A DNA stretch of 63,986 bases, the filler included, from Sanchytrium tribonematis (lineage: Eukaryota), in the NCBI GenBank assembly GCA_018985235.1. It is 5 parts of 5 records of this genome, joined end to end, with 100 filler letters (N's around TTAATTAATTAA, not from the genome) between each part and the next. Parts side by side here need not be neighbours in the genome. Positions count along the whole stretch, not along the records: positions 41,222 to 54,750 come from JADGIG010000186.1; 4 more parts are not named here. One strand, 5' to 3'. The position numbers and the translations under genes are program-made. Shown piece after piece: positions 48,939-49,788 of the stretch. How positions within the stretch are numbered: the stretch's first letter is position 1; every line of letters starts with the position of its first letter. A model generated the notes under the pieces. It did no database searches. It saw only the letters and a list, made by a program, of their open reading frames with translations, and was not told the origin of the DNA.

Positions 48939-49788
48939 ATGTCTTCAGTTGATTTTGTAACGCTTGAACATGAGAATGCCACAGTCACAGTTTATAAGTA
49001 TGGCGCAACCGTCACTTCTTGGAAAATTGGAGAGGAAGAACTGCTCTTTACATCTTCAAATGCACTTTTGGACGGGAGTAAGCCAATCAGAGGAGGGTAT
49101 TTTCATGAAAATCATAGCGGGTGCTGGTTTTCATTGCTAACGTAGAATACCAGTAGTATGGCCTCAATTTGCGAAGCCAGACAATGCTAAATTGCCTCAG
49201 CACGCATTTGCCAGAAATTCATTTTGGAATATTGAATCCGTCAAAGGAAATCAGTTAAAGTTTAAATTAGACAAAGTTCCTCAAGGTTACGAATGGCCTT
49301 ATAAGTTTGAGTTACACTATGTGGTTTCATTGTTGGAAAACGGCTTGAAGTGCGAGTTGACCGCTACTAACAACGATACTCAATCCTTTGAATTTACCTC
49401 ATTATTGCATACATACTTCAAAGTTCATGATGTTCCAAATGCAACTGTGTCTCAGCTATCAAGTGTTTGCTACGACAAAGTTTTAGATAAAGAAAGAGAA
49501 CAAATTGGCTCGGTCGAGTTTAAAGGCGAGGTGGATTTAGTATTTTTCAACGCACCTAACGAAACACTTTTGAAAGACGGCAACAGAAAGATCAAGATAA
49601 CCAAATCCAATTTCAATGATGTAGTAGTTTGGAATCCCCACCATGAAAAAGCTGCGAAAATGGCTGATTTAGAAAGCGGCGGTGAGTCGAAATTTATTTG
49701 CGTTGAAACTGGGTCTGTTTACAAACCGCAAAAATTAGAAGCAGGTAAAAGTTGGACGGCATCTATGACCATCCATGTTTCCAAATAA
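48939..49788 (+). CDS. D-hexose-6-phosphate mutarotase / glucose-6-phosphate 1-epimerase (exons 48939-49096, 49146-49788)
   Basis: YGATVTSW; splicing restores [36 protein letters not shown]. Confidence 0.92.
49097..49145 (+). other. 49-nt spliceosomal intron with a 30-nt internal hairpin
   Basis: GTATTTTC-[ATGAAAATCATAGC GGGT GCTGGTTTTCAT]-TGCTAACGTAG; removal restores RGGIP. Confidence 0.9.

What the first reader, a model, noticed from the sequence alone, without database searches (positions are those of the whole stretch)
49097..49145. The only long intron (49 nt) folds back to an effective length of exactly 19 nt
Seen: the intron is GTATTTTC (8 nt), then a hairpin 49105-49134, then TGCTAACGTAG (11 nt). 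The hairpin pairs ATGAAAATCA(TA)GC with GCTGGTTTTCAT: 12 bp including one G-U, a 2-nt bulge and a GGGT loop. The flanks total 8+11 = 19 nt, and the 3' end matches the T-H-A-Y-N-W-AG consensus. A competing perfect palindrome ATTTTCATGAAAAT (49099-49112) lies over the 5' splice site region, and the stem hides an alternative TAG at 49115-17. Inference: longer introns are tolerated only if RNA structure restores the 19-nt geometry, and the two alternative folds could act as a splicing switch.
Basis: partly seen in the sequence, partly recalled or inferred. Interest (0 to 1): 0.82.

Follow-up and report, generated by a model that had tools for sequence, protein, structure and literature searches.

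The report
Conserved hairpin intron among 19-base introns
In an alga-parasitic fungus whose other predicted introns are all just 19 bases long, the one 49-base intron carries a predicted hairpin that would fold it back to 19 bases, and related species keep a long intron with the same core sequence at this spot, which suggests the fold is needed for the intron to be cut out.

Summary
The window comes from a sanchytrid fungus (Rvb2 85% identical to Amoeboradix gromovi). It has nine predicted 19-nt introns and one 49-nt intron, in a glucose-6-phosphate 1-epimerase gene. A predicted 12-bp hairpin fills the gap between the 8-nt 5' splice site and the branch site, leaving 19 nt. Its energy alone is ordinary (z -1.3); its placement is not (0-12 of 10,000-20,000 shuffles; 7 of 460 pseudo-introns). 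New evidence: gene-caller products of two other lineages read into the same intron and share F-x-E-N-H-[AS]-G, so intron and stem sequence are old. One relative's intron is 56 nt. 'Exactly 19' is not shown in relatives: inferred single-hairpin folds leave 20-30 nt. The palindrome 'switch' is not supported (+1.6 kcal/mol, P<0.01), and the alternative TAG is a poor site. The stem does hide a 19-nt inner GT-AG whose use would create a stop. The mechanism has precedent (Giardia, Spironucleus, Trichomonas; microsporidian long introns). No RNA data were available.

The parts
48939..49096 (+). Exon 1 of glucose-6-phosphate 1-epimerase (PF01263), ends in I-R-G-G, intron in phase 2
49097..49145 (+). 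49-nt GT-AG spliceosomal intron (predicted; no RNA evidence)
   Evidence: present unchanged in Logan contig
49097..49104 (+). 8-nt 5' splice-site segment, starts GTA like 9 of 9 short introns
49105..49118 (+). Hairpin 5' arm (bulge 49115-49116); 49107-49115 reads E-N-H in the retained frame, shared with two other lineages
49119..49122 (+). 4-nt hairpin loop
49123..49134 (+). Hairpin 3' arm; can alternatively pair with 49145-49154 (9 of 10 pairs)
49135..49141 (+). Predicted branch site, putative branch A at 49140 (-6 from the 3' end, as in 9 of 9 short introns); 6/7 match to the recalled fungal consensus TACTAAC against 2-5/7 for the short introns
49146..49788 (+). Exon 2 of the epimerase; spliced protein 266 aa
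49127..49145 (+). Inner 19-nt GT-AG; its GT lies in the stem; use would create TGA at the junction (62-aa product); starts GTT, profile score 6.2
49099..49112 (.). 14-nt perfect palindrome; not a viable competing RNA fold in this species
49115..49117 (+). Alternative TAG (would give a 21-nt intron and a 61-aa product); poor splice score
47807..47825 (-). 19-nt intron in Rvb2; relatives' ORFs stop at the same site
7518..7536 (-). 19-nt intron, cyclic-nucleotide phosphodiesterase (profile 1-198 / 199-229)
11606..11624 (+). 19-nt intron, Rab GDI (profile 3-331 / 333-433)
26269..26287 (+). 19-nt intron, Sec10
27384..27402 (+). 19-nt intron, TBC-domain gene (exon 2 cut by an N run)
44424..44442 (+). 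19-nt intron, GH18 gene (ORF join and consensus only)
51629..51647 (-). 19-nt intron, vinculin-like gene; a relative's ORF stops 4 codons past the same site
61007..61025 (+). 19-nt intron, complex I 51-kDa subunit
62852..62870 (-). 19-nt intron, bromodomain gene (ORF join and consensus only)

Best explanation
This is an old, conserved spliceosomal intron whose middle 30 nt are predicted to fold into a hairpin that likely loops out the extra length, so that the 5' splice site and branch site would sit at about the spacing of the fungus's standard 19-nt introns. Shown from sequence: in the 19-nt introns the putative branch A is fixed at -6, and the 49-nt intron keeps an 8-nt 5' segment and an 11-nt 3' segment with the hairpin between them. 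Inferred: the hairpin forms during transcription, before exon 2 emerges. It occupies the one place that breaks neither the U1/U6 site nor the U2 site. It also buries an inner GT that lies exactly 19 nt from the 3' end and would give a stop if used. Selection for correct splicing has kept both arms across sanchytrid lineages; the fit need only be approximate, since relatives appear to leave 20 nt or more.
For: Hairpin pair probability 0.96-1.00 in transcript prefixes ending up to 49150, and 0.57-1.00 in longer ones when splice signals are held unpaired. The intron with the hairpin removed scores 15.0 on the profile of the nine 19-nt introns (leave-one-out range 7.7-16.9). Joint nulls 0-12 per 10,000-20,000; 7 of 42,294 genomic 30-mers close end-to-end this strongly. 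Read-through peptides P0163/P0166 and P0164 (exon 1 about 70% identical pairwise) share F-x-E-N-H-[AS]-G; three neutral read-throughs share any tripeptide in 4 or 204 of 30,000 trials. P0164 decodes 29 of 32 exon-2 residues in the shifted frame, fixing a 56-nt intron at the same site. No impossible pair occurs over 12 (P0163) and 9 (P0164) stacked positions in the homologous register; a random downstream segment matches as well in 74-147 and 485-853 of 10,000 trials. The ordinary Rvb2 intron differs even between relatives 95% identical in protein. Precedent: PMC6679479, PMC6349667 (passages).
Against: One intron only. Folding energy alone is ordinary. 18 of 460 pseudo-introns also fold to 18-20 nt. 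Inferred single-hairpin folds leave mostly 22-25 nt in P0163 (45-nt model, itself an assumption) and 26 or 30 nt in P0164; exactly 19 appears only in a two-hairpin fold, in 231 of 6,000 back-translations (533 of 4,000 if Ser is AGY). Against codon-shuffled peptides the relatives' folds are not significant by themselves (23/300, 21/300; 125/1000, 320/1000). No compensatory change could be observed because no relative's DNA was obtained. At equilibrium with 100 nt of upstream exon and transcripts reaching 49160 or beyond, the hairpin drops to probability 0.02-0.52. Sequence conservation, including loop-side letters, is more than a pure spacer needs. No RNA evidence for splicing.
Confidence: 0.6

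Rival explanations
1. The intron is a conserved regulatory element as well as a spacer. The 3' arm would choose between the 5' arm (productive 49-nt splicing) and the 3' splice junction plus exon-2 start (retention), or would expose the inner 19-nt GT-AG that yields a stop, so tuning epimerase output, perhaps through a protein that binds the conserved sequence.
For: The 3' arm pairs with 49145-49154 in 9 of 10 positions, and this fold competes once exon 2 is present, more so at low temperature. The inner GT-AG is exactly 19 nt and gives TGA; 15 of 309 GT-15-AG 19-mers score as well, 9 of them the real introns. The A/S-G motif after E-N-H is kept although its structural role differs between lineages. 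In P0164 two exclusive folds (26 vs 19 nt) are compatible with the peptide.
Against: The inner site starts GTT, while 9 of 9 short introns start GTA. It is absent at -19 in the 56-nt relative (position 38 is T) and only conditional in P0163. Equilibrium folds with flanks are model-sensitive and the local hairpin forms first. No expression data.
Confidence: 0.2
2. The spliceosome accepts this longer intron because of its stronger branch site. The stem-loop is conserved for another job, such as a released small RNA or a protein-binding site, as proposed for the long microsporidian introns.
For: Best branch-site match of the 10 introns (6/7). Relatives' inferred residual lengths vary. Whelan et al. 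describe long introns with stronger branch points, a conserved inner region and a stem-loop in reduced fungal-lineage parasites (PMC6349667, passages).
Against: The stem ends exactly at both splice signals in this species, and 11-12 nt from the 3' end in the relatives' inferred folds. No Rfam match at gathering score in the window, and no weak match overlapping the intron.
Confidence: 0.12
3. One reading: the 14-nt palindrome over the 5' splice site competes with the main hairpin and exposes the alternative TAG.
For: The palindrome is real. The homologous segment in P0164 can form a 6-pair 5' hairpin in some back-translations.
Against: +1.6 kcal/mol alone; the best fold containing it is -2.6 against -9.4; probability at most 0.006. 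The alternative TAG lacks a branch site (score 1.3).
Confidence: 0.04
4. The hairpin is a neutral scar of a recent inverted duplication of the intron's own 5' end, and the 19-nt fit is a by-product.
For: The intron has a direct-inverted-direct layout: a 7-nt word at 49100-49106 recurs at 49128-49134 with its inverse between. Such an event folds out about its own length.
Against: Both arms are shared by three lineages about 30% diverged in exon 1, so the feature is neither recent nor neutral. An ancient origin of this kind remains possible and untested.
Confidence: 0.04

Closest known systems
Long cis-spliced introns of Giardia lamblia, Spironucleus spp. and Trichomonas vaginalis (Hudson et al. 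2019, PMC6679479; passages read)
   Same: Short introns of near-uniform length plus a few long ones whose predicted stem-loops bring the single-stranded distance back to the short length (35-45 nt; 40-42 nt; 25-44 nt).
   Different: Here the standard length is 19 nt and the lineage is fungal. The stem fills the whole space between 5' site and branch site, and its sequence is conserved between species.
Long Poly-A-binding-protein and S23 introns of microsporidia (Whelan et al. 2018/2019, PMC6349667; passages read)
   Same: Reduced fungal-lineage parasite with miniature introns; a rare long intron with a conserved inner region, a predicted stem-loop and a stronger branch point.
   Different: Those are about 76 nt, in other genes, with C/D-box-like motifs; the passages I saw did not frame them as restoring a fixed length. 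Sequence homology to this intron was not tested.
Ultra-short introns of Stentor (15-16 nt, PMC9505925), Mikrocytos (16-17 nt, PMC10245619) and chlorarachniophyte nucleomorphs (18-23 nt, mode 19, longest 32 nt, PMC4035089); passages read
   Same: Fixed tiny length, GTA start; putative branch A six nt from the 3' end as in Stentor (position 10 of 15, 11 of 16).
   Different: Those are not opisthokonts, and the passages I saw report no hairpin-shortened long intron.
Glucose-6-phosphate 1-epimerase / aldose 1-epimerase family (PF01263)
   Same: Both exons match the profile; the IRGG-IP junction matches fungal homologues.
   Different: Ordinary host gene; 9 aligned homologues are continuous across this junction at protein level, and their intron positions were not examined.

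Membership tests
U2-type spliceosomal intron | GT...AG ends whose removal restores a conserved reading frame | tested here: met
U2-type spliceosomal intron | Branch-site motif with A at the lineage's fixed position | tested here: met
   A at -6 in 10 of 10 introns; branch use itself not shown
U2-type spliceosomal intron | Removal seen in RNA | not testable with these tools
   no RNA holder listed
Structure-shortened long introns (Hudson 2019 type) | Genome's short introns have a narrow length | tested here: met
   9 of 9 short introns in this window are 19 nt; window only
Structure-shortened long introns (Hudson 2019 type) | Predicted stem leaves a single-stranded length equal to the short class, with splice signals free | tested here: met
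   19 nt
Structure-shortened long introns (Hudson 2019 type) | Same residual length in orthologous introns | tested here: inconclusive
   inferred 20-25 and 26-30 nt, 19 only in a minority fold; relatives' DNA and modal length unknown
Structure-shortened long introns (Hudson 2019 type) | Holds for all long introns of the genome | not testable with these tools
   no genome held
Microsporidian Poly-A/S23 long-intron family | Conserved internal region overlapping a stem-loop | tested here: met
   by analogy only:
Microsporidian Poly-A/S23 long-intron family | Located in Poly-A-binding or S23 gene | tested here: not met
   host gene is PF01263
Microsporidian Poly-A/S23 long-intron family | Sequence homology to that family's internal region | not tested
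   those sequences were not fetched
Known structured RNA (snoRNA, riboswitch) | Match to an Rfam covariance model | tested here: not met
   0 hits at gathering score in the window; 3 weak hits at E 1.2-4, none overlapping the intron
Two-state RNA splicing switch | Two mutually exclusive folds of comparable energy | tested here: inconclusive
   palindrome fold fails; the arm/exon-2 fold competes in silico
Sanchytriomycota | Groups with Amoeboradix gromovi in a protein tree | tested here: met
   Rvb2: 300 of 351 identical; 100/100 support among 26 rows; one gene; species not determined

The most novel reading that the evidence does not exclude
Sanchytrid fungi splice by a near-rigid 19-nt ruler, the shortest intron class I could find reported for any fungus, and this lineage-wide epimerase intron is a conserved RNA switch built on that ruler: folded, it is spliced as a '19-mer'; refolded onto exon 2 or opened, it is retained or mis-spliced at an inner 19-nt site that creates a stop.
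Probability: 0.15. Interest if true: 0.88.

Novelty: new variant of a known kind. Interest (0 to 1): 0.63.

Why it matters
How a spliceosome handles introns under 20 nt, and whether it measures physical distance, is open. A fixed 19-nt class in a fungus, with one natural long exception whose insert sits between the 5' site and the branch site, gives a clean test: break the stem, restore it, shift it by one or two bases. It extends the 'fold back to the standard length' rule from metamonads to an opisthokont at about half the length. It also has a practical side: deposited sanchytrid proteins were called as unspliced ORFs and are cut at these introns (P0041, P0042), so gene-loss claims for this phylum may need rechecking.

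Tried and rejected
No whole genome is held, so the genome-wide test of long introns could not be run. No RNA holder listed. No relative's DNA was found: the search for related loci in metagenome contigs, 321 pattern matches and none confirmed; a sanchytrid-specific Rvb2 pattern gave 0 hits in metagenome, genome and viral contigs. Rfam: nothing. Palindrome switch and alternative TAG rejected. Recent neutral scar rejected by conservation. Protein-level selection on the read-through peptide was considered because the frame is kept up to E-N-H; it is disfavoured because the S/A column and the later run align better with single-base shifts at DNA level (inference), but it was not tested on DNA. P0165/P0167/P0168 (3 of 6 read-through proteins retrieved) were left out: they continue IRGG-IPLVFP and have no intron at this site. 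P0163 and P0166 count as one lineage. Structure tests on back-translations against codon shuffles were not significant. The search for relatives' standard intron length gave one hit. The frameshift-like junction at 56064-56095 was not checked against reads. Earlier scan notes: none on this genome or on look-alike DNA, none with the words sanchytrid or Amoeboradix. Paper searches that found no description of sanchytrid introns; one search returned 0 papers; one search listed 17 papers, none on this intron by title or abstract start. No supplements were read; those of PMC8371127 could bear on intron statistics.

Full report
Organism. The window is a very compact eukaryotic genome, about 35% GC, with mostly intronless genes. 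Its Rvb2 is 300/351 identical to Amoeboradix gromovi and groups with it and two ENA proteins at 100/100 support in a 26-row tree (rows were 4 sanchytrid-like plus 22 chosen from 120 listed hits). It is therefore a sanchytrid (Sanchytriomycota, algal parasites). Published sanchytrid genomes have 34.6-36.3% GC, and their proteins were called with TransDecoder (PMC8371127, passages). The species was not determined.

The 19-nt class. Strict-consensus GTA...T-H-A-Y-N-W-AG sites number 10 at 19 nt and 0-4 at each other length from 14 to 60. Nine join ORFs and score 16.6-21.5 on their own profile; the next 19-mer scores 9.0. Five have Pfam support on both sides (GDI 3-331/333-433, PDE 1-198/199-229, Rvb2, Sec10, complex I 51 kDa). 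The vinculin-like one is backed by a relative whose ORF stops four codons past the same site. Three rest on ORF joining and consensus. All nine start GTA and have T at -8, A at -6 and a pyrimidine at -5. A putative branch A six nt from the end is also the Stentor pattern (PMC9505925, passages).

The observation. The 49-nt intron interrupts a glucose-6-phosphate 1-epimerase gene in phase 2. Of 14 frame-restoring GT/GC-AG pairs, only 49097-49145 rebuilds the IRGG-IP junction of 9 aligned homologues and gives 266 aa; retention gives 68 aa. The Logan contig carries it unchanged (possibly the source sample). The hairpin is as described, 12 pairs, -9.4 kcal/mol. Its energy is ordinary: 29 of 200 shuffles match it. 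Its placement is not: strong + splice signals free + 19 nt unpaired occurred in 12/20,000, 6/20,000, 5/20,000 and 0/10,000 under four nulls, and 7 of 42,294 window 30-mers close end-to-end as strongly. These criteria were set after the fact. A harsher control: among 460 GT-AG spans with good end scores, 7 fold to exactly 19 (the real intron included, with the best splice score of the 18 listed) and 18 fold to 18-20. With the hairpin removed, the intron scores 15.0, inside the leave-one-out range of the real 19-mers (7.7-16.9). The stem starts after position 8 and ends at the first base of the branch-site heptamer. By general knowledge of U1/U6 and U2 pairing (recalled), that is the only insertion point that spares both signals.

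Conservation, the main new evidence. No relative's DNA could be fetched. Gene callers that ignore introns read from exon 1 into the intron, so I searched with exon 1 plus read-through (3 hits, 6 proteins with cluster members). P0163/P0166 (one lineage; P0166 lies on a contig of the same length, 14,920, as the exon-2 protein P0001 and the Amoeboradix-like Rvb2 P0161, so probably the same contig) and P0164 leave the coding frame after IRGG. Both continue with F-x-E-N-H-A-G, against F-H-E-N-H-S-G in the window. P0165/P0167/P0168 have no intron here and were left out. Exon 1 is 37/52-53 identical in all three pairs. A neutral read-through shows E-N-H in 16-23 of 200,000 trials; three neutral read-throughs share any tripeptide in 4 or 204 of 30,000, depending on composition. 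This assumes neutral sites are saturated, which was not measured. As a control, the ordinary Rvb2 intron differs even between P0042 and P0161, 335/351 identical. P0164 runs on through the whole intron: 29 of 32 exon-2 residues decode in the shifted frame (next best 12 of 35), giving a 56-nt intron at the same site. In the register homologous to the window's stem no pair is impossible over 12 (P0163) and 9 (P0164) stacked positions. A random downstream segment does as well in 74-147 and 485-853 of 10,000 trials. Against codon-shuffled peptides the folds are not significant (23/300 and 21/300; 125/1000 and 320/1000 at 8 pairs). So shared sequence is shown, a shared stem is compatible, and covariation is not shown.

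Is 'exactly 19' conserved? Not demonstrably. Sampled back-translations leave mostly 22-25 nt for P0163 (assuming its stop is the branch-site TAA, 45 nt) and 26 or 30 nt for P0164. The 3' flank stays at 11-12 nt in the best folds while the 5' flank grows. A two-hairpin fold of P0164 leaves exactly 19 in 231 of 6,000 draws, or 533 of 4,000 if one Ser codon is AGY. The relatives' standard length is unknown. One hint: the orthologous vinculin-like intron in P0169 reads V-F-H-I-stop, and that stop fits the branch site of a 20-nt intron better than a 19-nt one, which would need a purine at -5, seen in 0 of 10 window introns (inference from one protein).

The switch. The palindrome can form only 5 intramolecular pairs: +1.6 kcal/mol at 37 C, -0.2 at 15 C, best fold containing it -2.6 against -9.4, probability at most 0.006 in 36 flank-temperature settings. 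The alternative TAG scores 1.3. Two other features are better candidates. First, 49127-49145 is itself a 19-nt GT-AG sharing the branch site; its use creates TGA at the junction, and its GT is paired in the stem. It starts GTT, scores 6.2, and is absent at -19 in the 56-nt relative. Second, the 3' arm can pair with 49145-49154 (9 of 10 pairs). In equilibrium models this and related folds lower the hairpin to 0.02-0.52 once the transcript passes 49160, while prefixes up to 49150 keep it at 0.96-1.00, and holding the splice signals unpaired keeps it at 0.57-1.00. Folding order favours the local hairpin, so I rate regulation as possible, not likely.

Comparison. The principle is known. Long introns of Giardia, Spironucleus and Trichomonas are predicted to fold back to the short-intron length (PMC6679479, passages; echoed in PMC12316389, passages). 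Microsporidia keep rare long introns with a conserved inner region, a stem-loop and a stronger branch point (PMC6349667, passages); this intron also has the best branch-site match of the ten (6/7). Introns of 15-23 nt are reported from Stentor, Mikrocytos and nucleomorphs (passages). A 2026 paper lists ciliates, microsporidia and dicyemids as exceptions under 30 nt and not sanchytrids (PMC13644364, first third read). Searches for sanchytrid introns (passages; other hits seen as listings only) found no description. The library lacks most subscription journals, and no supplements were read. No Rfam family matches.

Verdict. A real, conserved, structured long intron in a fungus with a fixed 19-nt intron class. 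Geometry restoration is the most likely function (0.6), added regulation is possible (0.2), and the palindrome switch is rejected. New variant of a known kind; interest 0.63. Part of that interest belongs to the apparently unreported 19-nt class itself.

Noticed in passing
window 46461 (minus-strand short-chain dehydrogenase, 46076-46835): The Logan contig has about 73 more letters here than the window (record 641 to 715), and Pfam adh_short positions 110-133 are missing between the two ORFs. The apparent frameshift is a deletion in the window's assembly or allele, not an intron.
   Followed up: partly
window 243-289, 27750-27852, 56064-56095: Overlapping same-strand ORFs in different frames with no 19-nt GT-AG at the junction; possibly further assembly errors.
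   Followed up: no
window 45334-45385, 45730-45820, 50127-50184: Clusters of variant letters at about one third of the depth in run X1: mixed strains or alleles. None falls in the 49-nt intron.
   Followed up: no
P0041, P0042, P0161, P0162, P0001, P0163-P0164, P0169: Deposited sanchytrid proteins are cut at introns, or read into them, because they were called as unspliced ORFs. The read-through tails can be used to recover intron position and length.
   Followed up: yes
P0169 versus window 51629-51647 (-): A relative's orthologous intron reads V-F-H-I-stop, which fits a 20-nt better than a 19-nt intron; the standard length may differ between sanchytrid lineages.
   Followed up: partly
window 28992-37822 (+): Tandem run of about ten same-strand ORFs, most ending in F-Q or Y-Q: perhaps an expanded lineage-specific family. 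They were not scanned against Pfam.
   Followed up: no
window 48878-48938: Only 61 bases separate the head-to-head start codons of Rvb2 and the epimerase; the pair appears syntenic in a relative (same 14,920-base contig length for P0161, P0166, P0001).
   Followed up: partly
window 49100-49134: Direct-inverted-direct layout of a 7-base word, as a template-switch duplication of the intron's 5' end would leave; if so, it is ancient.
   Followed up: partly
window 13743-13842, 27433-27532, 41122-41221, 54751-54850: Four regularly spaced blocks of 44 N + 12 bases + 44 N cut genes; treated as breaks.
   Followed up: no
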